A stretch of 64,000 nucleotides of DNA from Lytechinus pictus (lineage: Eukaryota). Position 1 is the stretch's first letter, and each line of letters opens with the position of its first letter. A program made the translations under genes and the position numbers. The notes beneath the pieces are model-generated. The model was not told where the DNA came from. It saw only the letters and a list, made by a program, of their open reading frames with translations, and searched no databases. Of this stretch, positions 1 to 62,582 are shown one piece after another. The DNA is taken from contig NC_087245.1 in the NCBI RefSeq assembly GCF_037042905.1, positions 18,106,001 to 18,170,000 of the forward strand. The letters are read 5' to 3'.

Positions 1-639
1 GTATTGTGGGAGGGTAAGCCAGAAACCAATGACTGTGAATTAAAAAAAATATGGTAAAACACTGAAGATAGTTGTCTTGACATTCCAACATACATTTAAG
101 AGCAGAATAACATTATTAGTACAGTATATACAGTATAATAAATTGTGATTCAATTCAATGCTTGTTAATAATCAAATCCATGAATCTAAGGAATATGTGA
201 GAAAATTAGGCGATTCAAGTTTTAAAATTAATATTATTTTCCCAATTTGTTCAAAATTTAATTATTCTTTTTTATTTATTTTGGTATAAAATAATGTTGC
301 ACATACACTGGAGCAGCCATACGGCTGAATTGCGTACAATTTACAAAACTGAATGATGTACATGTATACAATACACTATTCTACAATACACAATACAATT
401 ATAGTTGATAAAATTTATTAAAGAATATTGAAAAAAGACATAAATAACTAAACTCCGATCTAAAGTCAATGAATATTGGTAACAGAATTTAACAAATGCA
501 TTTACTAAATGAAGATTTTATAATATAATTCAATACGGTTGCTTTGGGATGTATATACATGTCAAAGAAATATGCCATCTTTCATATAATTCATGTACCC
601 CATGCAAACCAATCACCTCTGCTGCAATAATTATACTAA

Positions 640-1130
640 ACTCCTCAAAAAAGTTTGGAAATCTGACTTTGATCGATAATCCCTCCTCAGGATTAGTGAA
701 TATTAATGTGTGATTGATACCAATGAATAGATCATTTAATTTCCTTTTAAAATGACACCCTACATTATATGATTATGGTTCACATGGAGGTGCAGTGCCT
801 TGAAATGTGGGGCAAGGTCAAAATTCAAAAGTTGCCAAATGAAGGGGCTTGATTTGAATGGATTTTCATCTCTATTGACACAGACAAAAGATGAACATTC
901 TTTATTGACCCTTCATGACCATTTCTGCTTGTTTTGCAGCTTTTCAATTCAGACCTCATCCAACACTTTTAAATCCTGCTCTTTTCGTGATGGCATGATC
1001 ATAACACGCATGGTATCATTTTAAAGAGAATTAAATGATCTTTTGAATATCAAATATGCATTACAAGTGTAAAATTGGGAGTTTTGAGAAATTAATGGCC
1101 AAACTCAGATTTCCAAACTTTTTTGAGGGG
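640..1130. mobile_element. Degenerate foldback/MITE remnant
   Basis: Nested inverted repeats: 641-671 vs 1100-1130 (CAAAAAAGTTTGGAAATCTGA) and 730-777 vs 994-1040 (GATCATTTAATT..TTTAAAATGA). Termini not resolved. Confidence 0.55.
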
Positions 1131-2743
1131 TTTTAGATCAAAGCAGAGGCAACCAACTGCCTTGCGTGAATTAAGGCATTTTTTTGTGCAAGTATAGGAT
1201 TAAGGATATAAAATTTAAGGTCATATAATTCATACAATATGAGTGGAAATGGAAATACTTTTTGTATCGACAAAACGCTGATAAATTGCTTTGGCAAACA
1301 TGATAACGACTAGCAGAATATCCAGCTTGAAATGTATAAAAGTTTTTTTTTTTTAATTTAACAATTATGATCATTTCATTTTTCGCCCTTTTTTTAAAAC
1401 TTGATATTAAAATCACTCTATATTTTGTAGCATATCAATCATCATCACATTGGTCAGATCATGCACAGAGGTTGTACCCTAATTAGTCATCAAAGATGTT
1501 ACAAGTAAAATATCTTAATGGCATTGACACTTAAGCATGACTTTCCATCATATGAACTTAATTATTTGTGAAACACCCACAGGTCATTAAGGTAATTACT
1601 TATCCAACGAACAGTATTGCAGACTCTGAATACTGTAAAATGCAAACTACACACGTATTCCATGCAGGCCTGATTCCATGTATTACAATTACAATCATTT
1701 TTTTGCGACACACACATACTAAACTGAAACCAGGAATAGAGGAAAGGTTCCTCTTTGTCTCATGATAAACCAGTAGTTAATTAATCAACCCCAACTATAA
1801 ATATCCACATTGTATTTAAATGCATTTACAAATATAGTTTATTTAGCTGTGATAAAAAATGAAACTATAACTGTATCACGTGTTTGAGCATAAAGAAAAT
1901 AAACTCCCATGGCAACTGTTTTAACTAGATTGTACAGAAAAATCACATAAAATGTAAACCTGTCTGAAAATTTTTGGAAAGATTCATGTGTACATGTAGT
2001 TATGAGGACTTTATTGGAGTATCACGATCATTTCAATCTATTTATAAATCTAAATGTTGATTCTTTGCAAATATATATTATTAAGCTCCATATCTCAGGG
2101 ATAATATTTCTATTGGATTAAGAACCCTTGAACAATTATCTTTACAAGTTCAGTGATTGCAATTAGCATATACCTAAGTATTAGAAGGCCCCAACAATTA
2201 TCACATACTGAAATTTTCAGCCTGTTCCACACTTAAGAAATTATTTTATAGCAAAACGAAACAGTGTGAATAAATTTCCATGTACATGTAGAACATCACA
2301 ATACATCCACTAAAACATACTTTCATTTCATATCATCCACATCAATACATTTTTATGACATATATGCATAGAGAAATAAACTGGAAAAGTGGCCAACACT
2401 TTTGAGGGCTTGACCAAAAATGCCTTTACTTTCTTGAACTTGTTTCCTTTATTATAAACCACTTCGCAAAAAACATTCATAGAAGATCGCCCTGTTGGCG
2501 TTCTCATCACAATCTCCTGTTGGACTGGTGTCCACTAAACTGGTTTAGGAAAATAGATGAGAATGGGGCTAAGAGAGGCTCTCAAATAACTTACTGGATT
2601 TTTAAAAAAGTATGTTGCATGTATACAAGCAGTCAGAAACCAAATTAAATGATTGACGTGAAGTTTCAGGGTCACATCTCTATTGATATAAACACCTTCC
2701 CATGAACCATGCATGTATCTCAATACTTATCAGGCGCAGGCTC

Positions 2744-2860
2744 TTGTATATTCCAGCTCTTGGAAAAATTATTAAAATCTTGTGGGCTTTCAAACTGTTT
2801 TATTTGTACCGGTATATTCCAGCTGTTGGAAAGATTATTAAAATCTTAAGGGCTTTCAAA
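2744..2860 (+). repeat. ~66-bp tandem duplication
   Basis: TATATTCCAGCT.TTGGAAA.ATTATTAAAATCTT..GGGCTTTCAAA occurs at ~2747 and ~2813. Confidence 0.85.
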
Positions 2861-3347
2861 TGTTTTGAATATCAAAGGAGTATACACTGTACATCAATTT
2901 TTTGATGAAAAAATTATGGAGAGCAATCGTAAAAAGTTCCATCAAATTACAAAATTAGAAAGTTATGAAAGTCTGAGAAGTCTCATTTACTTCCTATGGT
3001 GATCCTAAAATTAGCAATACTGCTTCAAAACTGTAGGTTTAGCAACTTCCAATATGTTTGTAGATCTACATGTACTCAAAATTTCATATTTTCCCCATTA
3101 CCCCTAAACTGCTCATTAATCTTTTGTAAACTTGAGATATGTTCACATTTAATACTAAAGATATAAATATACACATGTAAGTTACTGCTGGTCAGAGAAG
3201 AATAATCAGCAACCCCCCCCCCCCCCCTTTCTCTCCCTCTCTCAAGGATTACAGACATGAAAGGATACCAACAACAAAGGCTGGGTTAGAGCTCATGACA
3301 TCACATCTCTGATCAGTTGTCTCAACTTCATGCAATAATTTGAAGTA

Positions 3348-3992
3348 TGGCAGTGAGTCCAAACTTTGCATGTGTCCATACTTTGCGGACGGTCATTATC
3401 TCTCAAACTAGCCAATATCCTTAAAATCTGACATCAACGTTAAAAGCAACCTAAAATTACCCTTTGGCGTAAGTTTCTTCAGGATGAGTTCAGTATTCAT
3501 GAAAATATTGACAAAAGATCGGCAAAATTTGTCACCGTTAGTGCCGTTCCGAAGAAATCTGATATTCTCAACAAGCATCACGATATCATCATTTTACAAG
3601 CAGATATCATCGAAAATGTGAGTTCAATGTGGTACTGACTAATTCTATAGCATTTTGTCGTCAATCTGATATAAATATCTCACCTTTTGAGCTTGAGTTT
3701 TTGTTTATATCTCCTCAAAAATTTTGGTCCGCAAAGTTAGGTAACACTTTTTCAGAACGGTTTTCCAGCACAGCGCGCATTCATCGATCAGAATAGAATT
3801 TTGAGATTGCGATACCAGCGAAACCCCTTGACCTACTTCACATTTTTGTCAATGATTTTATAGTTTACGATCTTGCCGTCAATGTGGTAACTATTTCTTG
3901 AATTGGTTTTGCATAAATTGTGAATATTTTGTAAACAAATTTAAGCCTGAAGAATAACTTTGAAAAGTCCGCGAAGTTTGGACACCCCATCA
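3348..3992. mobile_element. TA-flanked Tc1/mariner(pogo)-like MITE, degenerate
   Basis: TA|TGGCAGTGAGTCCAAAC ... GTTTGGACACCCCATCA|TA, with internal repeats of GTCCGC(A/G)AAGT. Confidence 0.55.
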
Positions 3993-4609
3993 TAAAATAT
4001 CACTGTATAGAATTTAAAGCCTATATGAAAAGCTACTTTAATTGCATTCTGTTTGTGAGCTTGAGATCACTGACTCGACAAAATTGCAATGTAAGGCACC
4101 AACACCAATCGCCTTCTTCAGAAAACAAACTTGGTATGCTTCGCATCATCACCCACTAGTCTATGGCACTAATCTCCCACGTCCACTTTGGTCCCGTCTT
4201 TGTCTTTTTTCGCCACACTGTTTCCTCTCATTTTCACGAGTCATCCATACCGTCTTGGGTTCTATCAAAATAATATGATCGATAAATTTACAAATTACAG
4301 TACTAGAGTAGAGGGTCTAACGTTAGATCTAATTGTGATATGAACTGCGAGTCTGCATGGGTTTAAATATTTTGGAACAAGATGGCAGCTGCAAGTGCAA
4401 CAGCCCCGTCGCTGGAAAATTAAATTTTGCTGATTATTTTTGGCGTTTCTTAATCTTCTTAATCTTAGATTCTTACGGCCAAACGTGTTAATGCCAAAGG
4501 GGGTACCGGTACATGAAGGTGGCAAGGGTTAAAAGTACACAAACATTTTCTATATCTGTTCCGTTTAATATAATAGTTACAATTTGATCGAATTAACGTT
4601 AGAGAGTAT

Positions 4610-4923
4610 TACTAGCCAGGCGGCTTCTAGAGAGTAAAAATCATTTACTAACGTAAGGTTACTCTCATACGAAGCCAGGACTTCTACCTCATAGACCCAC
4701 ACAAAGGAAGCCAAAACCTGAAACTTTCACCCCCGAGATTTCTACTTTCCTTCTAAAAGATCTAGACCTAAATCATGTACATGGGATAAAACTTCATTTC
4801 CGACATTTCTACGCTCTCGTTGTTATTTTTAAAACAAGAATTCATCAAAAAAATGAAAAAATATTGTGAAAAGACGGAAGAGACTTGCCCGATGTTTACG
4901 CCGCCATCTTGTTTCTTATTGTA
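4610..4923 (-). repeat. Left arm (copy C) of a long inverted repeat; carries a YY1-like motif
   Basis: Reverse complement of 8413-8766 with high identity apart from micro-insertions. CGCCGCCATCTTG at 4899-4911. Confidence 0.9.
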
Positions 4924-6499
4924 CTTCCCCAACGTTACGGACGCGAGCGTCGCGTAAATCGTATCTGCGAAAATATTCATCAATTTTACCCAGTTTTAGT
5001 CTCATTTGTGCAGAAAATTGAGCAGATCAGATTCCCATGTTTCGCTCGGCGACTCCGATTCAATCCGCGTATATATCGACGAACAACGAATACGACGATT
5101 TTACATTTGCTCATTTGCACCCGTCTTTTGAAACCGACCACCCGCGATACACTAAGTTTACGGCCGATTCTTGTCGCAGTGGCGAAATATTTTTACTCTT
5201 CCAAATCAGTTCTATGATGTCAACATGCTAAATGATCGTCTCACTACTTCCACTGCGAGCTCCGGCACATGATTCGATGATTGACGACGGATATTTGTTC
5301 TAAAGCCGTTTCCTATCGGATTTCTTGGTTTTTCAGCGGGAATTGGGTCTGGTCAATACAAGTTTGATTAATTCTACTAAATTTTTACTTTTTGTTGCTT
5401 CTTTTTTTCTCGTAAAATCGATTCTTACCGTTCCTATGGACACTGCGCCTACTCTCCCGCGCGTATCGTTTGTAATACGCAATAATTTTAATGCGCGCAA
5501 GGTGGTCGGTTTCAAAAGAGGTGGTCGCGTCGATATGTGGTAGTCTCACCATACAATTAGGCACTTCAGTCGGGCGGGCGATCGCGCGGACACAGCGCTA
5601 GACGTAGATTTTTGCATTGTAGTGAATGGCGAGCGCCTATCTAACACACACAGTTCGCTCCGCTCGGCACTTTGGCCGAGCGCTGGAGTTGCATTCGGCA
5701 TTGCTCGAAAAGACAGAGTCAGTTTCTTCCTTTATTCCGCTGATTTTGATTGGTCAAAAATTCCCGCGGTTGCTTCGTACATCTTCGGTAAACATCGGAA
5801 ATATACAAGACGGAGTCTAAATTACCTTCATGCGAGGGAAGGACCTAATATTCAGGTATTTATTTTTCTTTGCTTGAAATCACCTTCTTGTAATCATCGG
5901 ATCCCTTGTAAACTCGGTCAGTAATAAAATTGTATATTTGAGAACATTTTGTGAAATTCTAATCAAATTTGGTCCGTAGAGAGTTTGCGAATATGAGCTT
6001 CAGTTTTGAGTGTCATGAGGTGTTTGTGAATCTGACTCGGCCGATCGAGCAGGGTTGTTTTGAGCGTATACGAACAGCTGTGAGTGACGTCATCCCCACT
6101 GCGTTGGGCCTGAGATTAGTCTTGGTATTCAGACACAGTATGTTTCAGCCGTTGTATATTTTTTTTAATTACGATTTGAGCTCTGTTAATTATGAAATTC
6201 AAATTGTTATTTTGAAAATAATTTTGTAGAATTCGTGTGAAATAAGTATTAAGAGCAAAACTGCAAGTAAACTTCAAGAATTTTGTTTGATATGTGATTT
6301 TTTGTTGGAATGCGTCTGAATGTCTAGAATATGGTATTGTTAATGAAAGTCGTATTTTTGAATGGCACAGAAAGCTCCTTGCATGAATTTAATTTAGAAA
6401 TAGGTTTACATACATGAGATGTGTTTCATGAATTTGATATCTGATTTATGGACCTCTGTTATGGTGTTAATTATTAATTTGAAGATATGAAAAAGTAAG

Positions 6500-7320
6500 A
6501 GAAGACAATAATGAGGCAATTAACAGTGATGATGAGACATTAATAATATGAGACAATAAACATTGAGACAATAATTATTATGATTATAATAACAATTATA
6601 ATTATAATGATAATAATTATAATTGTAATAATTCTTGAGACATCAATTCTAGTATTTATTGACAATAATTATTACAGTAATCATTATTATAATAAAATAA
6701 TTGTAATGATAACAATTATAATGATGTACTTTGAATTGTAATAATTACTGAGACAATAATATTAATGAGATATCAATAATAATCATTATAATAATAATAC
6801 TTATAATTAAAATAAATATAATTGTAGAAACAATTATAATTATAGTAATTATAATTATAGGCCTTATAATTAATGAGACAATAATAACTATTATTACAAT
6901 AATACTAATTATTATAAAATAATTATAATGATAACAATTATAATGAAAGTAATTATAATTGTAATAATTACTGAGACAGTAATATTGAAAGGTCATAAAT
7001 AATTATTACAAAAATTATTATGATTATAAAAATAATCATAATTATAATTAAAGGCCTTATAATTATTGAGACAATAATAATTATTATTTCAATAATAATT
7101 ATTATTATGAAATAATTATAACAATAATTACTATGATAGTAATTATAATTGTAATAATTATTTAGAAAATAATATTAATGAAACAAAAATAATTATCATA
7201 ATAATAATTATTATAATTATAATACTAATTGGGACAATAATGAAACGATGATGAGACAATAATAATATCAACAATTTTATTGAGACCATAATAACAAGAC
7301 AATAATGAGATAATAGACAA
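6500..7320. repeat. AT-rich (ATA/ATT)n minisatellite with recurrent GAGACAATAAT units
   Basis: Almost pure A/T triplet-like repeats punctuated by GAGACAATAA. Confidence 0.9.
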
Positions 7321-7698
7321 TTGAAATCAATCTGTTTTTATTTTTTTCTAGAAATCCTAAGATTATTATTTTAATTCTCTTTCTTTGATTACAAATTATA
7401 TTCATTGAAAACTTAATTTCTAATGTTCAAGCAAAGAAAATCAATATCAAGTCATGTTTACCCTGTGCACAAACCTACCACAGGGCAATTACCCCCGAAA
7501 TAGGGTTAGGTTAGGTGTAGATTTTTGGATAGGGGTACAGTGTAGTTGTCCGGGGGGGGGGGGTAATTGTCCAGGGTGGGTGGGGGGTGGGGGGGTGGGG
7601 GGTTATCGTCCAGGGGTAGTTGCCCTTGAACCAAAGAAATCATATGCCAATATGTCAAATCAATCTGAGTACTTCGAGATTTAAATAAAAAGCTTGTA

Positions 7699-8164
7699 TG
7701 ATGGTGGGCCCCAAGTCTGCGCACCTAACAATTTGAGTTAAGATTTAACATGAATTTCTTCTTATGTCACAAAATATTTTTGATAATAATGTTCCTTATA
7801 GTACTGAGAGTAAGTATACCAAATTTTTCATTAAAAAATGAAAGAAAATATAGGATTTTCTTGAAAAAACGTCGGGCAGTCAATTTCAGATTGAAAAAAA
7901 AAATGGTACCCGATGTCTGCGCACTCATTCACTTTGCACACGATTCGGGGATTTTGATGAGAAAGGCTGTATTTCGAGGCCGTCACATGAAATGCCCAGA
8001 ATTCATTATTTTTTCACCATTTTGCGTCGGATTTTTTAATGAATACCTGTCTATGTATTGCATGTGTAAAGTTCGTGCTCGTTGCGTATCATCTTTTACT
8101 AGAATCGCGTAGATACGCGGGTGCGCAGACTTGGGAGACCGCGCAGACATGGGGGAACTTGCCA
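7699..8164. mobile_element. TA-flanked pogo/Tc1-like MITE nested in the 5558-8411 element
   Basis: TA|TGATGGTGGGCCCCAAGTCTGCGCA ... GCGCAGACATGGGGGAACTTGCCA|TA. A homologous inverted copy lies at 25712-26072. Confidence 0.7.
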
Positions 8165-8412
8165 TACAATTCCCCATAAGCTATGTATTATAAATGTGCC
8201 ATGCCCAAAACAAAGAGAATAATAAGATTTCGCAATCTTCTTTTGTCCACAAAAAGGCCTGTTTTTTCATCACAAAGATGACAATAACTCGACTTCTAGA
8301 TATCGGAATTTGAAAATTCAAACAGTTTTGTGAATCGTAGATATTGAGCCTCATTGTGAGCCCATCAAATATGCTGGAACAGCCTTTCCTAATTTTCACC
8401 TGAAGTGCCTAA

Positions 8413-8766
8413 TACAATAAGAAACAAGATGGCGGCGTAAACATCGGGCAAGTCTCTTCCGTCTATTCATGATATTTTTCTCATTTTTTTAAATGAATTC
8501 TTCTTCAAATATAACGAGAGCGTAGATATGTCGGAAATGAAGTTTTATCCCATGTACTATGTAGGCCTACATGATTTAGGTCTAGGCCTAGATCTTTTAA
8601 TCAGTTTTAGAAGGAAAGTAGAAATCTCGGAGGTGAAAGTTTCAGGTTTTGGCTTCCTTTGACTTTGTGTGGGTCTATGAGGTAGAAGTCCTGGCTTCGT
8701 ATGAGAGTAACCTTACGTTAGTAAATGATTTTTACTCTCTAGAACTAGAAGCCGCCTGGCTAAGTA
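8413..8766 (+). repeat. Right arm (copy A) of the long inverted repeat; YY1-like CAAGATGGCGGCG at 8425-8437
   Basis: Reverse complement of 4610-4923. Confidence 0.9.
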
Positions 8767-11700
8767 CTATTACTAATACTAGGCTACTAGACTACGGCCA
8801 CGTCACATCAGCTCTGCTAGCTCTGGCAGTCACAGTGGCAGGGATTCTCAGCCTTCGATGGCCCGAAGCGCTGGTCCAGCGCGCAGCAAGTTCTCTGACT
8901 GACTAGAGTCAGAGCCGGGCGGCCGAGCGACGCGAGCTGAGAATGTGCAGTCTGCGCCTGGATGTACTCTTTCTCATAAACCTAAAATGAATAATTATTA
9001 AACTATAATAATACCTTGAGACAAAATCTCACCTTACAGTGGCAACAATTCAAGCCAAAGGACTGTCAACTCTCGACGGATGGTCCTCCTAAGAAAATTT
9101 GACCCGTCCCCCAAGCCCATCGGCGAAAACGTAGACCAGCGCGAGATGGCGCTATTGCGCCTCAGTTTTTCGATCATAATGGAATCCGTCTCTGTCACGG
9201 TGATTTTTCAAAACCGAAATCATGAGCAGATCTTGACCAACAATAATAGAAAAATAATAATGATGATGAATCAAAATATAGATCTAGAAAATTGTCAATC
9301 TTGATATAATAATTTTCTATTTGTTGAAAGCGATGCACCAAAGGCTGGTTTGAGCCAAGGGCGGAAATCTCTACCCAAAGGAAGGGGGGACAAGCCAAAA
9401 AAAAAAGGTTATCATGGCAAATGTTAGGTGATTTCGACCAAAATAAATTTAACAAGCAAAAAAAAAAAAGTTGTCACCCCAAAAAGAAAGGTCATCTCGT
9501 CCAAAATGCATGTTTAATTTCGATTTTGAATGATGTTTTTCTTTCCATCATAAAAGACCAAAACTAGTAGGGGGACGTTTGATATTGTGCTCCCCCCCCC
9601 CTACTATTTTGGGCACGTCCCCCCCCCCCCCCCTGGGACTTCCGCCCAAAAAGGCATCTGAGCATGGGGAGGTGCTAATGGGGTGCACATCCTGGGAAAG
9701 TGGAACTAATGTTTGGAAAATCAGCTGTTGAAAGCAAAAAAAAAGGGTACAATTTTTTGGATTGCTTGTCAGTGTCGGAACTCCTCTGTCTCAGCCAGTG
9801 CACCCCCTCCCCCCCCCCCCCCCCCCCCGCCTCATGGACCTGGGAAGCGGGGGTGCTGGGGGGCAGAAGCACCCCAAGATTTTCCCAGGGGACGCTGCGT
9901 GTATTATTTTCAATTGGCAGCACCCCCTGGAAATCTGGTAGGTGTGTATGAAAAAATGACCAACATCTTGTGTTGAACCCCCCCCCCTTTTTTTTTTGGC
10001 TTGTCAAATTTTTTGGTACCAAAGCGACTTTCATTTTGCGGTGAAACCCGTGTTTTTTGCTTGTCAAATACATAGGCGGATCCGGGGGGGGGGTGACCCG
10101 GGGGGCCCCCTATTGGTGGAGAAAAAAAGAGGAGGAAGACGTAAGAATAAATTAAGGTGAAGGGAAGACTTGGAAAAAATAAAAATCTTTCATGTCACAA
10201 ATTTGATAATTTTCGCTCGCTCGCAATGAATGTTTGATGAGATACACAAGATTCTTCCTCAATATAGGCTTATATGGAGCTTAAAATATAAAGTTTTGAA
10301 GTCAATATACAAAACGTATTTCAGCTCCGACATCGAGCTTTCTTTATTTTGTTTGATTTACAAATTGATTTTTTTTAAGTCCAGGCTCTGTAAAATGTCT
10401 ATTTTGTTGTCTCAATATCAACATTTTCAGCTGGCGCTGCGCGCTCGCATTATTTGATTTGTCAAGTAACTATTCGTGTTTTCCATGAAGTTCTCAAAAT
10501 ATCCCTTTTTAAGTTTGATTGTCAAAACCTATGCGGCAGCGCTGCGCGCTCGCATTTTGATAGGTGTGTATACAAAGTATATATATACCCCCTATAATAA
10601 TAAGTAATTATAGAACATACTATTTAAAATACACTTTTCATGACATCGCGATTTGCATTCGCAATTGTCGTAAAAATATATTAACCCATGCATCCTATTC
10701 ACAAAGACAAAAGTGCTTAAAATGTCCAGTTTTCAGGCCTTAATAATTTTTATCAACAAATTTCGAGCTGTCATTAGGCTTATTAGATTAATAAATACAA
10801 TAACATTTTTATGAATTCCTAATAATTAAATTGTCCTTTTTTTTCAGAATGGAATATCTCGCGCTTAGGAAGCGGAATAGGAAGATAGTTATTATTTTCA
10901 TGTCCTTAGAATGTCCCGGTCCTAGGTCAAAATAATAATAAAAATATCAGCTCGCACTTCGCGCTCGTATCATTTATTAAGTGCGATCCATAATATCCAC
11001 TGCACATTTTTCCTACACAGTGATTGAATTAGTGCTTAAATTGACCCTTTTCAGATCGGAATATCAAATATGTTCAGCTCTTGCTTCGCGCTCGCATTAT
11101 TGATTTTCATGATAAAAAAATATTTAAAATGCCCAGATACTATAGTTATAAATAAACACGCACGCATGTTTATTAAGATACGCAGCCTGTTCTTTATTTA
11201 AAACATGCTTGAATTATCAAGTTTCAGATTAGAACATCAAAAATTTTCTGCTCGCGCTTCGAGCTCACATTATTGATATAGGACACCCAATTAACCATCC
11301 TTCACATAATTTACAAAACATGAATAGAGTGACAAGTTTTAAAGTCTAAATCTCTTTTTTCCGTTCGCGCTCGCATTATACCTATCCTGGTCATGATTAA
11401 AAAAAGTGCTTAAAATTTCCATTTTTTTAGGTCGGAATGTAAAAAATGTTCAGCTCGCGCTTCGCGCTCGCTTTTTTGATTGTTGAAATGTCAAATGCGT
11501 ATCGTCTTCATGGTTAACAGCATGCAGTCCTTAACAGGTCCCATTTCGATCAGTTACACGCGCATCTTGTTCAGGATCACAAACATTGCTCGGAATGTTC
11601 AATTTTCAGGAAAAGATATAACATTTTCAAAAAAATTTAGCTCGCGCTTCGTGCTCTCACTATTTAAATAGGGCTTTTGAGATATCTATAAATGTATGTT

Positions 11701-12265
11701 TTTTTATAAGAATATAGCCAAGTGACTGTTATAAATACCCCTTCAAAGAAACAAACAAAAATCAACTTTGAATGGCCGATCCGGGGAAATATGGGTCAAA
11801 ATTCCCCCCCCCCCTCCCCCCACTGGCGAAAGGGATCCAGCTTTCGCCAAAAGGTTTTCCCCTTTAATAGTTTTTCGCATTTATTATTCCCCTCAGTATG
11901 ATTTACTACATTATCCTCCATACTCATAGATAGAGTACAATAAGTTCCGAGAATTATATGGTGTCATAATAATAATAATGGTCAATGCAAAAAGTGCTTT
12001 TGTTTCCACTCCCATATATTGAAATGGTGCTCTTCCGGGAAATAGCCCCCTCACTAGCTCTCTGCAGCATACAGAAAAATAGAAGCAAAAATAGTTCCAT
12101 GTCATTTATTGCTCATTGGCGGCGGGAGCATACAAATTTAGGGGGGCGGAAAAAATATTTTCACCCGTATTTTCCCAGTCGGCTGCTAAAATCTGTTGTT
12201 GCTCCGCTGCAAATTTCACACACTGTTTAACGGAAAACAAACTTCAACCCTCGATTGAATATATA

Positions 12266-26072: not shown

Positions 26073-26107
26073 TACAGTATTGTACTTGCTTTGGTTTTAG
26101 TTGTTAA

Positions 26108-45353: not shown

Positions 45354-45539
45354 TATATTCTAGAGCTCTAGCTCATGAGTTCTGTCGCTACTGTTTTCTT
45401 CAGATACATAGCTCTCATTGACCTTCTTAACAGAAGATGGCTGCATGTGCAATAAAGGATCAGTTCTCTGGCAATTGTCAGCACGAAACTGACATTTGCT
45501 CCAGAGTTGAACTTGACTGACAGAATGGCTTAGAGAATG

Positions 45540-50095: not shown

Positions 50096-53000
50096 CCTAT
50101 CCTTTCTCATTTCATTATTCACATTTTTCCTTTTCATTTTCCTTTCATTTCCTACTTTCATTACATCCGGAATATTCCATGTATTAGTCTCTTTTTATCT
50201 CAATTTCACCATGGAGCTATAGCTTCATGATTTCACTATGCTTTTGCAAATTTGTTTTACATTTCACTTTAATCTATTCTTCATGTACATGTACATGTAG
50301 CTTCAGTAATATTCTTTTGGGTCCCAAAAGAGATTTATTGGAGACATGTCTGCATTTCCAGCGTGTCTCATGATCCATTCCCTTCTCATGTATAATTCAT
50401 AAACGTTGCACATGTGAAACGCAAGATTAGCCATGGGGATGTAAGGTATCCGATGCCCTTCTCTCGTTGCACAAAAGGGGCATTGGTGTAGATTGCAGAT
50501 AAATCGTCACCTGGAGATGTTCTGCATGTGCTCACAATTATTTAGAAAGCTTTTCCCAAACCTCAGCTTTCAGGTGACATCATTTGAGGGATTCACTAGA
50601 CCAAGGAGCTTGAAAGGTCCTTGACTAGACCCTATGTTCTATATTCCATATCATTTATTTGTCATCTTTTCAATCACATGAAATACATGTATTACAAAGA
50701 CAAAGGAGACTATGTTCATGTAATTTCATACTGCGATTCAAATTAATATAATGGAGCACTTCCATACTGTGAGTGTCCCTCTAAATTTTCTTTCATATTC
50801 ACATTTATTTCTCATAGGATGTCAATTTTACAATTGTACTTATTGCCCTCTTTAGTTTAAACTTTTTGATCCATGTAGATTTAATCCTCTAGTACAATGT
50901 AGAAATTGTATTAGCTTGTGTAACCATAATCAGTAATATTTTTCATGACAGGCAGTTGCGAATCATCCCCTAGGAGCCTAGACTCTGTTCCATTAATAGG
51001 ATTTCCCCTACAAGGATATGATCTTCAGGTACACACCATACCCATTCAATATTATTAACCGGGGAAATATTCTCCAACCTGGGGTGTTAAAAATATAATA
51101 TCAGGAAAGCACGCTGTACTTCAAGCTGAGAAAGGCAGAGATGCATAGAATTGGCCTGTCCCTATACTCACTGGCTTGTGACTTGATATCTGGCTCTACA
51201 ATGTATGTATCCCCCTGCTGTTGACATGAAGCTGGTTTGAATTAGGCCCACAACTTTATGAGCTTTTTGCCAACTTTGATATTTGCCAACTCATTTTAGG
51301 GGGAACATTAGAGTGAGAGAGGAAGAAATCATTTATATTTTCATTTTTCTCAATACATGTACACAAATTTCACTTTTTCCAGCATCATATCGTAATTACA
51401 AGATACTTTCCTAATAGATCATTTGTTGCTAATCAGAAGACTTGGCCAATGGCCGCACAGTAGCGAGAAAATAATACCAGAGAAAAAAATTATTAAAATA
51501 TTCATAATAGAACAAAACTTTTAAGATCATCATAAAGAAACTTCTGATAGGGGATTCACATTATTCATCAGTTTTTTTGGGGAGGAGGGGGGGGGGGGGA
51601 GAGGTAATATTTTTTTATGACCAAGGGTCCACTCCACACAGAATTCCTTCCTACCCAGTGGAAAGGTCGTTGTTCTGTTTAGATAGAACTATTCCTGTTG
51701 TAGTGGAAATGATGTTAAACTTCATGATGTTGTGAAGTAAAGTAGTTCAAAGAATTTTAAAGCAATTTCACGAAAAAGCAGTAGTGTAAACAGTGCACTG
51801 GAGCAGATCTTGAAGATGAACTAGTAATGGCAATCATTAGCATTAAGTGGTTTCTGCCCCCGGTAAGGGGTAGTGATATCACAGTTTAATGAGTACCCTA
51901 GATAGACTGCTGAACCCTAATGAAGCCATATCTCATTTTACCCTGCCATCGCAGTTCACACACCAGTTCACACACTAGACTTGCTAGAATTCTGTTGATA
52001 GTCGTCTGGTTATTTTTTTTGTAATGAACATTGCGCCGTACACATTTTAAGGCAATATTTTGTGTACTTTCTGATATTTTCACATGTTTATAACAAATCG
52101 AATTTCAGGAATTCATCATTCTCATTATTCAGATTATTGGTATTAGTATTACAAAATCATTATCAATCTTCATATAAAATTGGAAATCATGCAGTGGCAA
52201 AAACCCCAACAATTTAATCACTATGAAAATTGGCTTATGAAATATAATACAAACTGCTATACTGAATGGGTGTCATAAAATTCTTGTGATACTATTGAAC
52301 TCTAGTCTGAACGTAACTGTACAAACATAAGGGTCTATCAAGGGTGCACAGTGTGCTAACTGGCTCCTGAAGTTCTAATATTGATTGACCTTATTGAAAA
52401 ATTATTTCTTATACAATATTTTGCTACTAGTCTGAAGGATCCATTTAATATATCACACTCCTTTCACACCACCTTCCTTCAGTATGGATCAAGAGTCAAT
52501 TATCTTAGTCTGAAGGGGCTGTGGAATAGCGCCCTTCAGAGTAGCTCCTCCCAGTGACGGAAATTAGTTCCACAGGGATCCTCTTGTGGAAACAGGACCA
52601 TTAATACCTTCTAGGGTTTCTTCATTAATGTACTACTCGGTTTACATGGGAATGAAATGTGAACGCCAATTAGTCATTCCAGGATTTCAATATGAGCCTA
52701 ATTTTGTGTGCCATTGCACTTTGTTATGAAGAGTTTTAGATTATTTACCTCAAAAATTCGCATGTCTCTCTCTATTCGAGGCAATAATGGTTGTATTTTT
52801 GAGTGGTTATTGATTTGAACGCATGTTTGTTGGGTGGAATAATTGTACATATATAGAAAAATAAAACAAATGTGAAGAGACAGAATTCAATATAGTTTTA
52901 CTTATCAAGAAAACATTACAAAATGCTAAATTGTTGAAACCCATAGCTCTAGAACTTATTTTTCACCAATTCATATATCTCCCATCCAAAACAGCTTTTC

Positions 53001-53614
53001 ATCCGGATTTTCGTTTGGATCATATGTAACCTTGCCTGACATACATGTATCCATCATGGCTAAGGCGGGATTAATTTGTTAGAATTTCAAGCGATAGCAA
53101 AAGTCAGATTAATGACAAGAAAGAAATTTACCACAAGAGTGATCAACATGTTACTGTGCAATTTTCATTAACCTTTCCATGGAGGTTCTGCATTTTTCAT
53201 TAATCTGAAATGAATTGGCAGGTACATGGAGTATGTGTGTCAAGTAGCATCTGGACAAATGATTGCGATATTAGAATATAGATAATCTTGAGCATTAACG
53301 CAAATGCATCTGGTAATGAACAAGTTGGACAAAATATGATGTTGAATTCTTGTGTCAGCTCTCTTACATTGACTTGTATTTCAGAAGGAAATTAGAAAAA
53401 TATCTTGATTAGTTTGTCAACTTTAATACTTACAGATCAAAGGAGACCAATCGTAATAATTTACTACTATAAAATTCATTAATGAATACATTGATAGATT
53501 AATAAACAAAAAGAAGAATATTAATTGTGGGATTATTATAATGAAGATATTGAAATACACAAATTCATACCATCCAGTAGAGACCAATAAACCAAAACTA
53601 CTTGGGTTTTCATT

Positions 53615-54542
53615 AGGCGGTGCTGCACCATCCCGAGTTTGCTCAATCTCGAGATTTTAGCCCGATCGGCCCTCTTCGCGATTAATCTCGAGATTCAAGA
53701 AACCCCGTCTCCACCATCGCAAGAAGAGCGATTCCTGCTCGAGCGAGGCAACAGGCCCGATATTCTGAGCATGCACACTTTCGGATCTTGGAGTTTCAAC
53801 GGCCCGTGCTTTTGAATAACTTCCCGCGATATGCAATCAATGTAATCCTTTCACTAGCACTTTCGCCGAATTCGACCGGTGTTATGCAACAATCCTCTCA
53901 GCTCAGTCGCGCTCAGCGAGTGAAGAAGTGATGTATTCTTAGGTAAATATGATGGCGGAGAAGGAGGCAACGACAGAGAGAGAGACAGAGAGAGAGGAGG
54001 AAAGAAATGCTATTTGCTCACATTTTGCGAAGGAATAAGACGACACTGTTGTCAGTGTTGTTATTGACTATGACCATCGTCGATAATGAGCGCCTCCCCC
54101 ATCGGTCTGGTCTCTCCCAAAATCCATTCACTGGTGGAACACCATTGTTGCTGATTGGGGAATTGATGAACGCTATTCGCGATAATGTCTATTCGCGTGT
54201 ATAAAGTTGACTTTCGCATGCATTCGCGATGTGTTTATGTTTTGACCAAGGCAGAAGTGGAACGCGAATTGCATTATGGACTGACGTCATGAATAAATTA
54301 CCCCGAGTCCAATCTCGAGTGTGTCTGCACCTACGAATTAGCGGGATAATTCGTAAAATAGCGCGCTATTTTGCAAATAAACCCGAGTTGACTTGGGATT
54401 GCAATCTCGAGATTAATCCTGCGAACTAGCGCGATAACTGCGTCTCCATTGCAAACAATCTCGAGATTTTTCAGATCGGGATAAATTGCCGGATCAGAAA
54501 TAGTGCGCTAATTTGAAAACTCGGGATGGTGCAGACGGCCCT
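53615..54542. mobile_element. PIF/Harbinger-like MITE
   Basis: TIR core CTGCACCATCCCGAGTTT, TSD ATT, AATCTCGAGATT subterminal palindromes. Confidence 0.85.
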
Positions 54543-56357
54543 ATTTAGGTTTTTAAATTGCCTCATTCAGCCTCATCAGGCTTAACAAAAAAAAAACACT
54601 CCAAGACTTTGTGATGCCATAATAGAAGGCTTTAATACTAGGCTACTCCAGGGATCACGCACGTATTCCCATAGACTCGTGTGTTAAAATGGCACTGTTA
54701 AGAATTCATAAAAAATAAAGTTGAAATTAGAGGGTTGAATGTTTACTACCAGTGGATAGGATATAAATGACCCTGTTCTCTGGCCAGAATAGGGTACCTT
54801 AGCCAGCTTATTTTAAAAATAAATTGACATTTATGAAGACATCTCCTCACAGGATCGAAGTCATCACCTGAAACAGTGAAGTAGCCCTAATTCCTCTGCC
54901 AGCCAAAAAACAGTTCCAAATGTATCAATATTTCGCCCTAATTTGGAGAAGGAAGTTCAGTAGTTGCCCTTCCTATAATCAGTGTTAGATGGTCAATCAT
55001 ATTCATACACTTATGTCAATCAGCAATATCAAATTGAAATTTTTTTGAATGGGTTGGGTCGAATGAATATCTTTTGCCTTCGTGTTGTAATTAGGCTCTT
55101 GGCAACTCCATGTATTGATATGAAGTATTGTTTGTTTATAATTAAGTGTAAACACACTTTAAATATTTGAATTGGGATGCAAATAATAAGAGTTAGGGTA
55201 GGAGGATATAGGATCTAGAAATGGGTTGATAATGATTGTAGAAAGGCAAGTTCAGCGATCATTGCTGAAAACAACAAAGTTGATCCTTGGTTCGATTTCT
55301 TCACATTGAATGAAAATGAAGCCAGGTAAATCATATGTCATAAAATTTTCAATTAAATAAGGTTGAATGACTGAGGAAGAATATGCTTCATATACACAAG
55401 AGCAGGGTATTTCCTTGGTTTAAAAAAAAAAAAAAAACGGGGATGGGGGTTACATCAACACATGTGGGGGTACAGTGTATTTAGTTGTATTCGTCTGTAT
55501 CATCAATATATTTTGAGTTGATTTCTGTGTCTCCATTGAAATGGCAAGTTGATGAATCAAATACATGCACAGTAATCTACAGAGTTGGTCTAAGACTTCT
55601 CCCACATTCTGATTTACGTCACTGGATCAGGAAGATTTGAACAATTTCAATACAATATACCAAAGAGAAACCATGAATATTATCCCTTCCTATCATATTG
55701 CCACCTGGAATTCTGGCATGTGTTTTTAAGAGGTTCTGTCAATACTTGTAAATAATAGTGAGCATGTGTGGTACCTGTTCGGAGGAACAACATTAGAAAG
55801 TGCAATCATCTGGATTCGTGCTGTTTTGGCAGAGATGAAGATGTTGACAACTTGCAACCGAGCTGCTGTTGGTGTAATAAGATAGCAATGCTCAAACATG
55901 TTTTGGGAGATGTTGCTCCAAACAATGACAGAGGCAAACATGGTTTTTAGAGATGACTCAAATCATGCACTGTTCACAGATCTGCATTGAGTCTTTTTAT
56001 TTGCTTTTGAATTTTAGAAGTATTTTTCAGTATTCTGCAATGTAATCTGGATTGATGTATAAATAAGATGTCCATATTCATAGGGGGACAGAAATATTTG
56101 ATAAAGGAATGTTGAGTGACACTACATGTAGTTATACCGGTAAATATTATAAAGTGTAATAGCACATTGATACAGTCATAGAGCATTTAAATTCTGCCAC
56201 ATTAAAAGCCAAAGGGTGAGTTTTAGCATCTGAAGCATGATCTGATACTCTCGCAAATTACATGTATGTTGACATAATTTTGATGTCCCTTGCAGATGAT
56301 ATAGATTTGTATGTAACTGAATGCCCTTTTCTTTCTGTACTTCTCTCACAATGACAG

Positions 56358-58630: not shown

Positions 58631-60784
58631 ATGGCTTTCAGTGACTCCCAACCATTTTGGGATCCAAGTCGGACAATGGAATACCAGAGCAAGAGGGACT
58701 TTTCACCACCTAAGTCTCCAACAAGGAGTTTATCATTTTCCAAGTGGCTGCAACGAAGTGGCCAGCTGACACGACTGATCGTTTTATTGTTGGTGATCTT
58801 GATTTTGCTCCCTCTGTTGACCCATTATTACCTGAGCAATACAGATCTAGATTCACTAGATCAAAGGAGTTTTAGTATTTCACTAGATGAAATGATTGCA
58901 CTGAAGCCTAGTGAGTTTAAATCACATTTGGTGGAGCTCTATCGCATTAAAAATTCTGTTCAAACGGAGTTGCGGCAATTGGAGGAGAAGAGAAAATTTT
59001 TACAAGCTCAGGTCACACGTTTGTCACTGCAGTTAGAGCAAGCACAGTCCGAGGTCCGTAGTGCTATTGCAGAAAGAGATCGCATCAAGGATCAGATCCA
59101 ACAGACCATCAGAGATCAGAGTGAGATTGTAGAAAGAAGTCTTCGGCACATCTCTGCTCCTTATCAAATTCTTCCTAATTTAGAAGACAGTGGAGATATC
59201 GAGCCACCAAGTTTGCCAGCAAGATGTTCACAGCATACATGCTTTGATTACTCACGATGTTCGCTCACATCACGATTTCCAGTATTTGTGTATAATTCTA
59301 ATGATTTATGGCGAGGTGGTAGTAAGTTAGACTCAACTATAAAGCTTACTGTCACAAATGCATTTGGACGGAGTTCTTATCTAACACGTGATGCCAACTT
59401 AGCCTGTGTTTATGTGGTGCTAGTAGGAGAGTTGGAAGATCAGGGTAACCTACCAAGTAGTCGTGAGCTTGAAGTTAGACTACACAAACTACCATACTGG
59501 AGGAGTGATGGCAGGAACCATCTCCTCCTGCACATTGTAAGAAGTCTTTCCACTCGAAACATTCTGCAGAATGTCAATACAGGACGTGCCATCGTTGTTC
59601 AGACACCCTTCGCGGATTCCCAATTTCGTTCAGGGTTCGACATCGTCGCGCCAATGCTCCTTGGGCTTAGCTCAGAAACAGACTGGAAGGAGGTTCCTCT
59701 GCAGTTCCCCGCCAGAAGGAAATATCTTATTACATATCAGGGATCAAAACCAACTCAGACTATGGTGCAAACAGAATATGTAGACAATGCTCCTCTGAGT
59801 AGGAGGCTTAAAGATGTAGATAGGACTAAATCTGTAGAGGACCTTATGATTCTAGAAATGGAGAAACTGAATTCTCTATCTGATGATAATGTCCATCTTG
59901 ATTTTACTTGTAAATCCTTTAAATCGTTTGATGGCATTGATGCCTCAGACTGGAAGCTATGCAGTACAAAGACAGAGAGATCACATCTCTTAAAGCAATC
60001 AACTTTTGTATTAATATTAAGTCCAGGAGACCATATAGTATCTTCCACTTCTTTCTACACCCGCTTTTTTGAAGCCCTTCAAACTGGTGCAATACCTGTA
60101 ATTGTAGGAGAACACATGCAGTTACCTTTTAGTGAATTTATTGCTTGGAATGAAGCTTCTATAGTTCTTCCCCGCTCCAGAATAACAGAACTCTACTTCT
60201 ATCTAAAGACCATCCAGGACAATGATATTCTCAAGCTCCGCAGACAAGGATGGTTCCTTTGGACAACTTATTTATCAAATACAGATGCCGTCATCAACGG
60301 CATCATTGCCACTCTAAGAACTAGAATAGGAATCCCAGCCAATGTAGTGCCACAAGAGAAAGCCCTTGATCTCTTCACTGAGGACTTCCCTCAGAAGACG
60401 CAGCAAGCTGAGCAGATGTACCCAGAGTCTGATGATGTCTTCCCAGCCCCTGAGCTTCCTTTCCCCTCCCCAAAGTTCCTCAGGAATTACACGTCTATTG
60501 CAATGGATTCCCATTTTACATGGAACAACCCACCAGGTGCTCAGTTCATGTTCCCGTACACCCCATTCGACCCTGTCGTTCCGTCGGATGCCAAGTTCTT
60601 GGGCTCAACCCTTGGATTTCGTCCAATAGGAGGTGGTGCAGGAGGCTCAGGCAAGGAATTCCAGGAGTCTCTAGGAGGCAATGTACCCAGGGAGCAGTTC
60701 ACGATAGTCATGCTAACTTATGAGAGAGAGGCAGTCCTAATGAATTCTCTGATTCGACTCATGGGATTACCTTTCTTGAATAAG
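58631..60784 (+). CDS. EXTL3: Exostosin-like 3 glycosyltransferase, first (large) coding exon: TM anchor, coiled coil, exostosin/GT47 domain, start of GT64 domain
   Basis: 718 codons from the ATG. Hydrophobic anchor LIVLLLVILILLPLLTHYYL, coiled coil, CFDYSRCSLTSRFPVFVY, LPYWRSDGRNHLL, RFFEALQTGAIPVIVG, GGGAGGSGKEFQESLGGNVPREQFTIVMLTYERE. Ends at donor AAG|GTAAGC (60785, phase 0). Confidence 0.96.
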
Positions 60785-60982
60785 GTAAGCAAGATGTTAT
60801 TGCACATTTTATAAGGAGACATTCTGGTGTCAGAGGGTTTTTTTCCTTTTGTTAATAAATGGACATTTTTGGGGCTCCATAAATACAAAAGTCAAATGTC
60901 ATTTATGGTCATTTAAAAGATTGATACTTTCTATTGTTCAAGATTGATACTTTCTATTGTTCATTGCTTAGTTCATACTTAA

Positions 60983-61564
60983 AGGTCAATTCCACCCCAG
61001 GAAAATGCTGACTTGAATAAATAGAGAAAAATCAAACTAGCATTGTGCTGAAAATTTCATCAAAATCGGATGTAAAGTGAGAAAGTTATGACATTTTAAA
61101 GTTTCACTTATTTTTCACAAAATAGTGATATGCACAACCAAATGAGTCAGTAGATGATGTCTATCACTCACTATTTCTTTTGTTTTTTATTGTTTGAATT
61201 TTACAATATTTCATTTTTTATAGATTTGACAATGACCAACTTGACTGAACCATATAGCATTAAACAATGCTAATTCCACATGTTCTGGGAGGAATTAATC
61301 GTTGTATCACTTGACAATGAGGAGAAAATTAGAATATTTCATATAATAAAATACAAAATAAATAGTGAGTGGATGACGTCATAGTCTCCTTATTTGCATA
61401 CCAGCCAGGATGTGCATATAACTGTTTTGTGAAATTAAGCGAAACTGTAGAAATGTCATAACCTCCTTATTTTACATCTGATTTTGATGAAATTTTCAGT
61501 GTTATGCTTGTTGGATTTTTCTCTTTTTATTCAAATCAACTTTTTGTTGGGGTGGACTTGTCCT
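60983..61564. mobile_element. TTAA-TSD MITE (Kolobok-like) inside the EXTL3 intron
   Basis: TTAA|AGGTCAATTCCACCCCA ... TGGGGTGGACTTGTCCT|TTAA. Shares GAAAATTTCATCAAAATCGGAT with the 13787 family. Confidence 0.85.
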
Positions 61565-61823
61565 TTAATATCTTATAAACATATCAGTTACAGATTGTCC
61601 AGCCATTTCTGGTGTATCCTAACACACAATTAGATATTTAAAAAGGGATAAAAAATTAACATTAACATTATATGTATTCTGTATAATTATGTATATATGT
61701 AAATATATGAAGAAAAATAAAATGTTAAAAGGAAATTTAATATTATACAGGGACAGTTCATATTTTGGCACTTATGGAAAGATTACACTTTTCATTGAAT
61801 CTATTTTTGGCTCCGCTCATCAG

Positions 61824-61898
61824 GTAATTGTTGTCTGGAACTCCCCTGAGATGCCAGCTGCTGATCTAGTATGGCCTGAGATTCATGTTCCCATAAAG
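61824..61898 (+). CDS. EXTL3: EXTL3 coding exon 2 (VIVVWNSPEMPAADLVWPEIHVPIK)
   Basis: Acceptor CATCAG| at 61823 and donor AAG|GTAAAG at 61899. 75 nt, phase 0/0, continues the GT64 VVVWN motif. Confidence 0.93.
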
Positions 61899-62582
61899 GT
61901 AAAGATAAATATTGATTTTTTTTTTTACATTTAATTTTTTAATTTTTTTTTTCATTCTTTGTAATTTTATTTATAATGTCATTTATTTATGTACATGTAT
62001 TTTATTCTGTCATTATTTTTTATTCAAATTATTTTTTTTTTTGAGGGGGGAGGTGGTTAAAAAAATATCCCTTGAAAGGGCTGCTGTTTTCTAAAATTGC
62101 TCATCAATCACTTTAAAGATAGAGAGGATGACAGACCTCTATTATGTTACCAATTACACCAGCATCATATAATTAGAAGGATGAGATCTTATTATTTTCT
62201 TTTTAACCAATTATGATTGTTATGGATGTGTGCTTGAATAATGCCAGTCACTATTCTTGATTTGGCTACTGTTTAAAGTTCTTGAGCATGTGGCTTTCCT
62301 TTTCGTTTTTTCAAATATTCTCACATCATGATTGGCAGTTTTCATGATTTGCAGTTACTGGATGGGGTGGGGGCTTTGATGGGTGTCAAAGACTTATATT
62401 TCTAATATTCACCTTCTCCATACAGTGTACCTGTATTTATGAACAAAATGTACTGCATGGGCACTTAAAATTGTGGAGGTAGGCTTTACATCTTAATATA
62501 AACTGCATCACTCAGTGTTGTGCACATGTACGAGTATAATTCATGTTAGTTGATAACACTGCTAATTGATTGATCTAATTAG

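What the first reader, a model, noticed from the sequence alone, without database searches (positions are those of the whole stretch)
359..62000. Palindromic 8-mers TACATGTA / TAGGCCTA / TACCGGTA are 6-bp insertions at TA sites: a fossil record of transposon excision
Seen: by eye more than 25 TACATGTA, about 11 TAGGCCTA and about 7 TACCGGTA, far above the ~1-2 each expected from base composition; none noticed in the EXTL3 CDS. Paralogue pairs give filled versus empty sites: 2807 (ttgTAccggTAtattcc) vs 2747 (ttgTAtattcc); 28291 (TAccggTAtt) vs 33700 (TAtt) in the HINE copies; 8562 and 8583 (TAggccTA) vs plain TA in the left arm; 31886 (TAcatgTA) vs the opposite TIR at ~32281; 20422 vs the opposite MITE arm. 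Established: Tc1/mariner excision leaves the duplicated TA plus 2-3 nt of the element ends. Inference: each 8-mer is TA + 2 nt from each end + TA. Candidate donors are in this window: TA|CC...GG|TA (28933-30166) and TA|GG...CC|TA (44045-45353). TAACGTTA and TAGATCTA may be further classes.
Basis: partly seen in the sequence, partly recalled or inferred. Interest (0 to 1): 0.72.

Follow-up and report, generated by a model that had tools for sequence, protein, structure and literature searches.

The report
Three kinds of transposon excision scars
Non-coding DNA around a sea-urchin gene carries almost one short palindromic scar per thousand bases, in three flavours, most likely left where cut-and-paste jumping genes of different families landed on a TA and later left, which would give a countable record of past jumps.

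Summary
Observation confirmed. In 64 kb of sea-urchin DNA, TACATGTA occurs 37 times, TAGGCCTA 11 and TACCGGTA 7, against shuffle means of 1.1, 0.7 and 0.3. At 28291, 73 paralogous contigs in four public runs lack the six bases. GGCC and CCGG cores never copy their flanks (0 of 18). TACATGTA is a documented Tc1 footprint (24 of 103 worm revertants, PMC4490562). The CC-ended element belongs to a TA-flanked family found in six other contigs. Best reading (0.75): excision footprints of several TA-targeting Tc1/mariner/pogo-type families. Not shown: any empty orthologous allele (3 of 12 tested sites keep their length in a related taxon, 8 undetermined), a three-allele locus, a CA-ended donor, or that the GG element is the donor. 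Absence from the EXTL3 exon is not significant; TAACGTTA and TAGATCTA fail correction. The scan already noted TACATGTA scars elsewhere in this genome; the extra classes with candidate donors are the addition. It may explain the unexplained 6-bp indel excess reported in lancelets.

The parts
359..61999 (.). 37 dispersed TACATGTA words (class CA..TG): 359, 1991, 2283, 3067, 20422, 23219, 23365, 26735, 27661, 27720, 28804, 30548, 31886, 32330, 34578, 35368, 36023, 36067, 36521, 38202, 38435, 42996, 43499, 43933, 46708, 48144, 50286, 50292, 50684, 51354, 53042, 56123, 56259, 56959, 56965, 58370, 61992
   Evidence: 0 of 100 shuffles reach 37
8562..49847 (.). 11 TAGGCCTA words (class GG..CC): 8562, 8583, 14770, 15369, 22965, 23077, 24285, 25028, 25559, 39492, 49840; five lie within 2.6 kb
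   Evidence: span p 0.006
2807..56142 (.). 7 TACCGGTA words (class CC..GG): 2807, 4504, 28291, 29446, 29514, 29941, 56135; three inside and one 640 bp from the CC-ended element
   Evidence: 3 of 7 in 1.7% of TA sites, p 1.6e-4
28291..28298 (.).
   Evidence: six bases left out in 21, 24, 21 and 7 contigs of four runs; against the copy at 33655-33810
8562..8590 (.). Two TAGGCCTA in the right arm of a 4.1-kb foldback element, absent from the left arm: 8583 a 6-base gain, 8562 part of a 13-base compound gain
31886..31893 (.). TACATGTA in one inverted arm, plain TA in the opposite arm near 32283
2807..2814 (.). TACCGGTA at the start of the second unit of a local tandem duplication; first unit has plain TA; left anchor short
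20422..20429 (.). TACATGTA in one arm of a degenerate inverted repeat; opposite arm is 6 bases shorter but reads CA
50286..50299 (.). Stacked pair of TACATGTA sharing a TA (also 56959-56972): incipient 6-bp microsatellite
3061..3074 (.). Stacked different cores sharing a TA (GATC then CATG); likewise 4318-4331, 23365-23377, 39492-39504
28933..30166 (.). Non-autonomous element with 28-bp perfect inverted ends starting CCG, flanked by TA; candidate donor family of the CC..GG class
   Evidence: relatives in L001-L006; 0 Pfam hits in 14 of its 15 frames of 45 aa or more
44045..45353 (.). Non-autonomous element with 26-bp perfect inverted ends starting GGGG, flanked by TA (AT reading also possible); weak candidate donor of the GG..CC class
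   Evidence: 0 Pfam hits in 10 of its 12 frames; no relative in viral contigs
30212..30999 (.). Second GG..CC-ended, TA-flanked element (17-bp inverted ends); target duplication not settled
58631..60785 (+). Large first coding exon of EXTL3; no footprint word (not significant)
   Evidence: Exostosin_GT47 E 8.9e-34; 81% to Diadema antillarum EXTL3

Best explanation
The words are excision footprints of several TA-targeting cut-and-paste families of the IS630-Tc1-mariner/pogo group that have accumulated in neutral DNA. An element inserts at TA and duplicates it; on leaving, the transposase nicks the non-transferred strand a few bases inside each end, so each flank keeps TA plus a short 3' overhang of element end; germ-line repair joins the two overhangs and leaves TA + end bases + their reverse complement + TA, a net 6-base gain. 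Ends CA, GG and CC give the three cores; loss of one base at the junction gives the enriched 7-mers (TACAGTA/TACTGTA, TAGGCTA/TAGCCTA). Each scar offers two new TA targets, so scars stack. Shown: enrichment, the paired TA frame, 6-base gains against paralogues, non-templated GGCC/CCGG cores, biased flanks, a TA-flanked CC-ended family. Established knowledge: cleavage geometry and footprints (PMC6943129, PMC4490562). Inferred: that these particular words came from excision, which family made which core, and 2-base versus 3-base overhangs (a 3-base CCG or GGC overhang would give the same core by annealing of its last two bases).
For: Counts far above shuffles. Joint TA frame. Six bases absent from 73 paralogous contigs at 28291 and from paralogous arms at 8583 and 31886. 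Cores have no copy in the flank in 0 of 11 GGCC, 0 of 7 CCGG and 32 of 37 CATG sites. Flanks are non-random and shared between classes: A at -3 in 0.55 of 74 CATG arms vs 0.33 background (p 1e-4), G at -1 in 0.36 (CATG) and 0.50 (GGCC, p 6e-4) vs 0.18; the pogo element Passer has A at -3 and G at -1 in its target consensus (PMC9976928). The two most enriched 7-mers are those expected from the same ends (14 vs 3.9; 21 vs 9.3), one being the canonical Sleeping Beauty footprint. TACATGTA is 24 of 103 in-frame Tc1 revertants in C. elegans. The CC element's ends recur in six unrelated contigs, conservation stops at the TA, and 5 of 5 complete copies end in TA; the longest, L006, is itself enriched in TACATGTA (6 vs 0.54) and TACCGGTA (2 vs 0.05). 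One-mismatch halos (82 vs 42; 24 vs 12) fit long accumulation and decay. Stacking 7 of 55 vs 4.0% background (p 0.006, word list chosen after seeing the data).
Against: No orthologous empty allele was shown: of 12 sites in the stretch laid on four runs, 26735 and 28804 cannot have lost six bases in the related taxon, 25028 keeps its length in one sample, 8 are undetermined. No CA-ended TA element in the window for the commonest class. TAGGGTA, the 3-base footprint of the GGG-ended candidate, is not enriched (8 vs 6.3). In blastn alignments of paralogues within the window there is no clean 6-base peak (gaps of 5, 6, 7 bases: 6, 14, 13) and only one or two of 14 six-base gaps are of this type. 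In worms the word is a minority product even under in-frame selection, and in rice most excisions are messy (8 of 94 perfect; PMC4423477), so such uniformity needs a special repair bias. 12 of 37 CATG words have three core bases in the flank (background 6%), which allows templated insertion for part of that class. Three of six claimed pairs are not clean.
Confidence: 0.75

Rival explanations
1. Transposon-independent micro-insertion: slippage or polymerase-theta-type templated repair at TA-rich breaks creates the words and seeds (TACATG)n microsatellites.
For: 5 of 37 CATG words sit in a full tandem context and 12 of 37 share three bases with the flank; in C. elegans the TACATGTA class falls from 24 of 103 to 3 of 39 without POLQ and is scored as an insertion.
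Against: 0 of 18 GGCC and CCGG cores have any 3-base copy in the flank; templated inserts vary in length and sequence, these are fixed; gives no reason for exactly three cores in a TA frame.
Confidence: 0.08
2. Transposase-made scars without a resident element: abortive integration or immediate re-excision at TA targets, so that the words count transposase attacks rather than completed insertion-excision cycles.
For: No donor for the main class and no filled allele at any word; very high density (0.86 per kb) relative to two or three TA-flanked elements in the window.
Against: No experimental precedent seen in the papers read; ordinary excision already yields the word.
Confidence: 0.07
3. Selected transcription-factor sites: TACATGTA is the preferred site of Irx homeodomains and an abundant Phytophthora promoter motif.
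For: PMC3520976 (passages) prefers this reading for Phytophthora; two words keep their length in the related taxon; 0 of 37 lie in the 4.6-20.3 kb repeat block (p 2e-5, post hoc).
Against: Three unrelated cores share one TA frame and flank bias; words appear as private gains inside repeat copies and stack on each other; they are spread over 40 kb of introns, not clustered at one promoter.
Confidence: 0.05
4. The words are ancestral and the empty paralogues arose by microhomology deletion between the two TAs.
For: Deletion between the TAs is a common repair outcome (25 of 103); two-copy pairs alone cannot be polarised.
Against: At 28291 the family as a whole lacks the six bases (73 contigs); deletion cannot create a 16- to 33-fold excess.
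Confidence: 0.03

Closest known systems
Tc1 excision footprint of Caenorhabditis elegans (PMC4490562: passages, Supplementary Data 3 read whole; Eide and Anderson 1988 seen only as cited in PMC3520976)
   Same: Two-base 3' overhangs; the repair product TACATGTA, a 6-base gain at TA (24 of 103 revertants).
   Different: A minority product at one selected locus in the laboratory; here about 0.6 per kb of natural DNA, with two further cores.
Canonical Sleeping Beauty, ZB and Passer footprints (PMC6943129, PMC7913693, PMC9976928; passages)
   Same: TA + terminal bases of the element + TA; the Sleeping Beauty 7-mer is enriched here too (21 vs 9.3).
   Different: Those keep 0-4 bases, for Sleeping Beauty three from one end; the dominant words here are palindromic 2+2 cores.
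Genome-scale excision surveys in rice (PMC4423477, passages; PMC5023962, listing only)
   Same: Excision scars read from comparative genomics, including Mariner elements.
   Different: Rice scars are heterogeneous (8 of 94 perfect, mean 18 bp deleted, 13 bp filler) and need the filled allele to be recognised; here scars are uniform and recognisable alone.
Excess of 6-bp indels between lancelet haplotypes (PMC4284660; main-text passages and supplement passages)
   Same: 6-bp indels 'excessively more common than expected' in a polymorphic marine deuterostome.
   Different: No sequence or cause given there (0 hits for footprint, excision, TACATG in the supplement text); whether these are the same words is untested.
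TACATGTA promoter motif of Phytophthora / Irx site (PMC3520976 passages; PMC11134190 listing only)
   Same: Same word, highly abundant in non-coding DNA.
   Different: Read there as a factor-binding site and the footprint idea dismissed; here paralogue evidence shows insertion and there are sister cores.

Membership tests
Excision footprint of IS630-Tc1-mariner/pogo elements | Duplicated TA on both sides of a short core | tested here: met
   Joint TA frame exceeds independence for all three cores
Excision footprint of IS630-Tc1-mariner/pogo elements | Net gain relative to an empty TA site | tested here: met
   28291 against 73 paralogous contigs; 8583 and 31886 against opposite arms; 3 of 6 claimed pairs clean. 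Met for paralogues only
Excision footprint of IS630-Tc1-mariner/pogo elements | Gain polarised on orthologous alleles with an outgroup | tested here: inconclusive
   3 of 12 sites keep their length in the related taxon, 8 undetermined, 1 tested only on paralogues; table cut
Excision footprint of IS630-Tc1-mariner/pogo elements | Core equals terminal bases of a TA-duplicating family in the same genome | tested here: inconclusive
   CC: element present and TA-flanked family shown. GG: element present, duplication ambiguous, 7-mer points to GGC. CA: none in window; no whole genome held
Excision footprint of IS630-Tc1-mariner/pogo elements | Core not derived from flanking host DNA | tested here: met
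   0 of 11, 0 of 7, and 32 of 37 without a flank copy
Excision footprint of IS630-Tc1-mariner/pogo elements | Flanks show a transposase-type target preference | tested here: met
   A at -3, G at -1, T depleted at -1; compare Passer consensus. A binding-site flank bias is not excluded
Excision footprint of IS630-Tc1-mariner/pogo elements | Same locus seen with the full element (three alleles) or footprint produced in an excision assay | not testable with these tools
   One read-laying run, spent on 22500-28900; no assay possible
Tc1/mariner/pogo non-autonomous element (28933-30166) | Short terminal inverted repeats with TA on both sides, conservation ending at TA | tested here: met
   28-bp perfect ends; 5 of 5 complete relatives end in TA at the end not fixed by the search pattern
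Tc1/mariner/pogo non-autonomous element (28933-30166) | Cognate DDE/D transposase with the same ends | tested here: not met
   No Pfam transposase hit in 14 frames of the element nor in 38 frames scanned in all; expected for a MITE, so family name stays open
Irx/TALE or MYB binding motif | Occupancy or conservation beyond neutral DNA | not testable with these tools
   No binding data; only length conservation at two sites

The most novel reading that the evidence does not exclude
In sea urchins and other marine invertebrates, germ-line repair turns Tc1/mariner/pogo excision into a stereotyped 6-base scar whose four middle bases name the donor family. Such scars reach about one per kb, make up about a tenth of all CATG, GGCC and CCGG tetramers here, seed microsatellites, mimic factor-binding motifs, and are the cause of the unexplained 6-bp indel peak in lancelets: a family-resolved, datable census of past excisions readable from one genome.
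Probability: 0.4. Interest if true: 0.75.

Novelty: new variant of a known kind. Interest (0 to 1): 0.55.

Why it matters
Excision normally erases its own history, so lifetime activity of cut-and-paste families is underestimated from surviving copies. If these words are footprints, a single genome gives counts of excisions per family (core), relative ages (mismatch halos: CATG and GGCC old, CCGG without halo) and target preferences. At 0.86 per kb (1.1 per kb outside the repeat block and exon) they would be a major source of small indels in non-coding DNA, offer a direct test for the published but unexplained 6-bp indel excess in lancelets, and warn motif finders that an abundant palindrome such as TACATGTA may be a scar. 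The footprint itself is known; its density, uniformity and several classes were not found in ten library searches.

Tried and rejected
Whole-genome counts: no genome held. Orthologous polarisation: runs found and four laid on 22500-28900, but only 12 of 256 indel rows were shown and most came from repeats; gap arithmetic settled 3 sites as length-conserved and left 8 open, 25559 being compatible with a 6-base loss in all three samples without proof. Unbiased paralogue indel spectrum: no clean 6-base peak. Extra pairs: 14770 is a 10-base gap, at 18903 homology ends at the word, 6856 is not an exact word. CA-ended donor: none (the one hit, 4778/8556, is internal to a longer arm). Transposase remnants: none in 38 frames, a chosen subset of the 110 frames of 75 aa or more plus shorter frames of the two elements. 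CpG decay as source of CATG (from CGCG) rejected: intermediates 1 vs 0.7 expected; no decay products of CCGG either. Assembly or Hi-C junction artefact rejected: length shared with independent runs at two sites, mismatch halos, same words in L006. Depletion in the exon rejected as evidence (p 0.16-0.27). TAACGTTA and TAGATCTA not accepted as classes, though 3 of their 7 copies are stacked on another cassette. The 4613-8762 element is not a TA donor: by eye it has TAG..CTA ends and an 8-bp duplication. Papers PMC7386202, PMC9777934, PMC5224488, PMC2872659 (passages) gave no terminal-base table or prior report.


Full report
Setting. The window is sea-urchin DNA: its one long reading frame is the first coding exon of EXTL3 (Exostosin_GT47, E 8.9e-34; 81% identical to the Diadema antillarum protein, 55% or less to other named echinoderms). 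No whole genome was held, so all counts are for 64 kb.

Observation. TACATGTA occurs 37 times, TAGGCCTA 11 and TACCGGTA 7. Dinucleotide shuffles give 1.13, 0.69 and 0.32, and 0 of 100 shuffles reach the observed numbers. Among all 256 palindromic 8-mers they rank first, second and sixth. The TA on the left and the TA on the right come together more often than their separate rates predict (37 vs 14.1, p 3e-7; 11 vs 2.6, p 7e-5; 7 vs 1.3, p 3e-4), and 9-12% of all CATG, GGCC and CCGG tetramers sit in this frame, against 0-3% for nine other palindromic tetramers. TAACGTTA and TAGATCTA do not survive 136 tests. Absence from the exon is uninformative (1.3-1.9 expected).

Are they insertions? Three further comparisons of mine were not clean (14770, 18903, 6856). 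The strongest case comes from public runs: laying four runs on 22500-28900, six bases at 28290 were left out in 21, 24, 21 and 7 contigs of paralogous repeat copies, 55-75% of the depth that continues past the site if that depth counts gapped contigs. So this word is a private gain. Orthologous evidence is weak. Organism A differs from the window by about 5-8 letters in 100, many shared by three samples, so it is a related taxon. The indel table showed 12 of 256 rows. From the pieces table, 26735 and 28804 cannot have lost six bases in organism A, and 25028 keeps its length in one of three samples; eight sites are undetermined. Where the question could be answered, the words are older than that split. 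An unbiased blastn survey of paralogues in the window gave no clean 6-base peak.

Where do the cores come from? Not from the flanks: 0 of 11 GGCC and 0 of 7 CCGG words have even three core bases next to them; 5 of 37 CATG words are in full tandem context (four are two stacked pairs) and 12 of 37 share three bases. Flanks are biased alike in the CATG and GGCC classes (A at -3, T at -2, G at -1), as a target preference would be; Passer's consensus also has A at -3 and G at -1 (PMC9976928, passages). The two most enriched TA-N3-TA words are TAGGCTA/TAGCCTA (14 vs 3.9) and TACAGTA/TACTGTA (21 vs 9.3): each is the 8-mer less one junction base, and the second is the canonical Sleeping Beauty footprint (PMC6943129, passages). 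One-mismatch relatives are in excess for CATG (82 vs 42) and GGCC (24 vs 12) but not CCGG (11 vs 9.5). Seven of 55 words share a TA with another cassette (4.0% expected, p 0.006, list chosen post hoc).

Donors. A degenerate version of the CC end found six metagenome loci; five hold both ends, all five close with TA, and similarity stops at the TA (the TA of the matched end was part of the pattern). In the 15-kb locus L006, which showed no blastn match to the window at E 1e-5, the two top TA-N4-TA words are again TACATGTA (6 vs 0.54) and TACCGGTA (2 vs 0.05); the other five loci are short and hold no TACCGGTA. Three of the seven window TACCGGTA lie inside the CC element (p 1.6e-4), which may be local hopping or inheritance. 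The GG candidate is weaker: it starts GGG, TAGGGTA is not enriched (8 vs 6.3), one copy cannot separate a TA from an AT duplication, and no relative was found. No CA-ended element is in the window. Earlier scan notes mention young Tc1 and pogo families in this genome; I did not check them.

Mechanism. Established: Tc1/mariner transposases cut the non-transferred strand inside the element, leaving 3' overhangs, and repair leaves 2-4 terminal bases between two TAs. For Tc1 the overhangs are two bases (PMC4490562), and in its Supplementary Data 3 the product TACATGTA is 24 of 103 in-frame revertants in repair-proficient worms, 10 of 36 without LIG-4 and 3 of 39 without POLQ (my sums of the table; selection for frame inflates it). 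Inferred: the urchin germ line joins such overhangs with little loss, for at least three end types. A 3-base overhang CCG or GGC would give the same core by pairing its last two bases, so geometry is not fixed by these data.

Against. No empty orthologue, no three-allele locus, no donor for the main class, an ill-fitting GG donor, and far messier scars in rice (8 of 94 perfect; PMC4423477). The same word is read as a factor site in Phytophthora, where the authors mention and dismiss the Tc1 footprint (PMC3520976). The CATG class is absent from the 4.6-20.3 kb block (0 of 37, p 2e-5 post hoc), which by eye is mostly repeat DNA; young sequence or gene-body bias could both explain it.

Novelty. 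The footprint is known. Ten library searches found no report of such words as a dense genomic record in echinoderms; the library lacks most subscription papers and older Tc1 work, and bioRxiv supplements are closed, so a prior report may exist. The lancelet genome supplement notes that 6-bp indels are excessively common and gives no cause. This scan has already noted TACATGTA scars in at least four other pieces of this genome and similar words in diatoms and a placozoan; a look-up for the GGCC and CCGG words together with urchin and amphioxus found nothing. Verdict: real, probably excision footprints (0.75), a new variant of a known kind; interest 0.55.

Noticed in passing
window 4613-8762: 4.1-kb foldback element with about 310-bp arms and an AT-rich tandem array; by eye TAG..CTA ends and an 8-bp target duplication whose right copy carries a 3-base gain at its TA. 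A related left end starts near 17286.
   Followed up: partly
window 4600-20300: Repeat-rich block with CpG observed/expected 1.0 (0.4-0.5 elsewhere) and no TACATGTA but four TAGGCCTA.
   Followed up: partly
window 13783-14372, 26104-26686, 60979-61568: MITEs with long arms, TTAA-like flanks and AGG starts; first two 93% identical, very high copy in all four runs. Kolobok-like by recall, not tested.
   Followed up: no
window 23142-24211: CpG-rich stretch that is about ten-fold multi-copy in the related taxon's runs; by eye holds a minus-strand splice donor near 23520.
   Followed up: no
window 29218-29528: Besides three exact TACCGGTA, the CC element holds one-mismatch words at 29112, 29218, 29237 and a compound at 29511-29528 ending in what may be another CC end.
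   Followed up: partly
window 17420-18876: Element with CAG..CTG ends nested in the paralogue of the foldback arm.
   Followed up: no
window 39856-40330 and 53622-54540: Inverted-repeat elements with GG starts and TWA-like flanks (Harbinger-like by recall); a GGC-starting end at 53622 is an alternative source for the GG..CC class.
   Followed up: no
L001:2370 and L003:1332: Two CC-ended MITEs from other organisms share an internal TACATGTA at the homologous place, showing that such words can be inherited inside an element.
   Followed up: partly
window, six sites incl. 2883, 25034, 55471: 9-mer TACAGTGTA/TACACTGTA enriched (6 vs 0.68, p 8e-5 of 512 tests): possible longer footprint class of CAGTG-type ends.
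   Followed up: no
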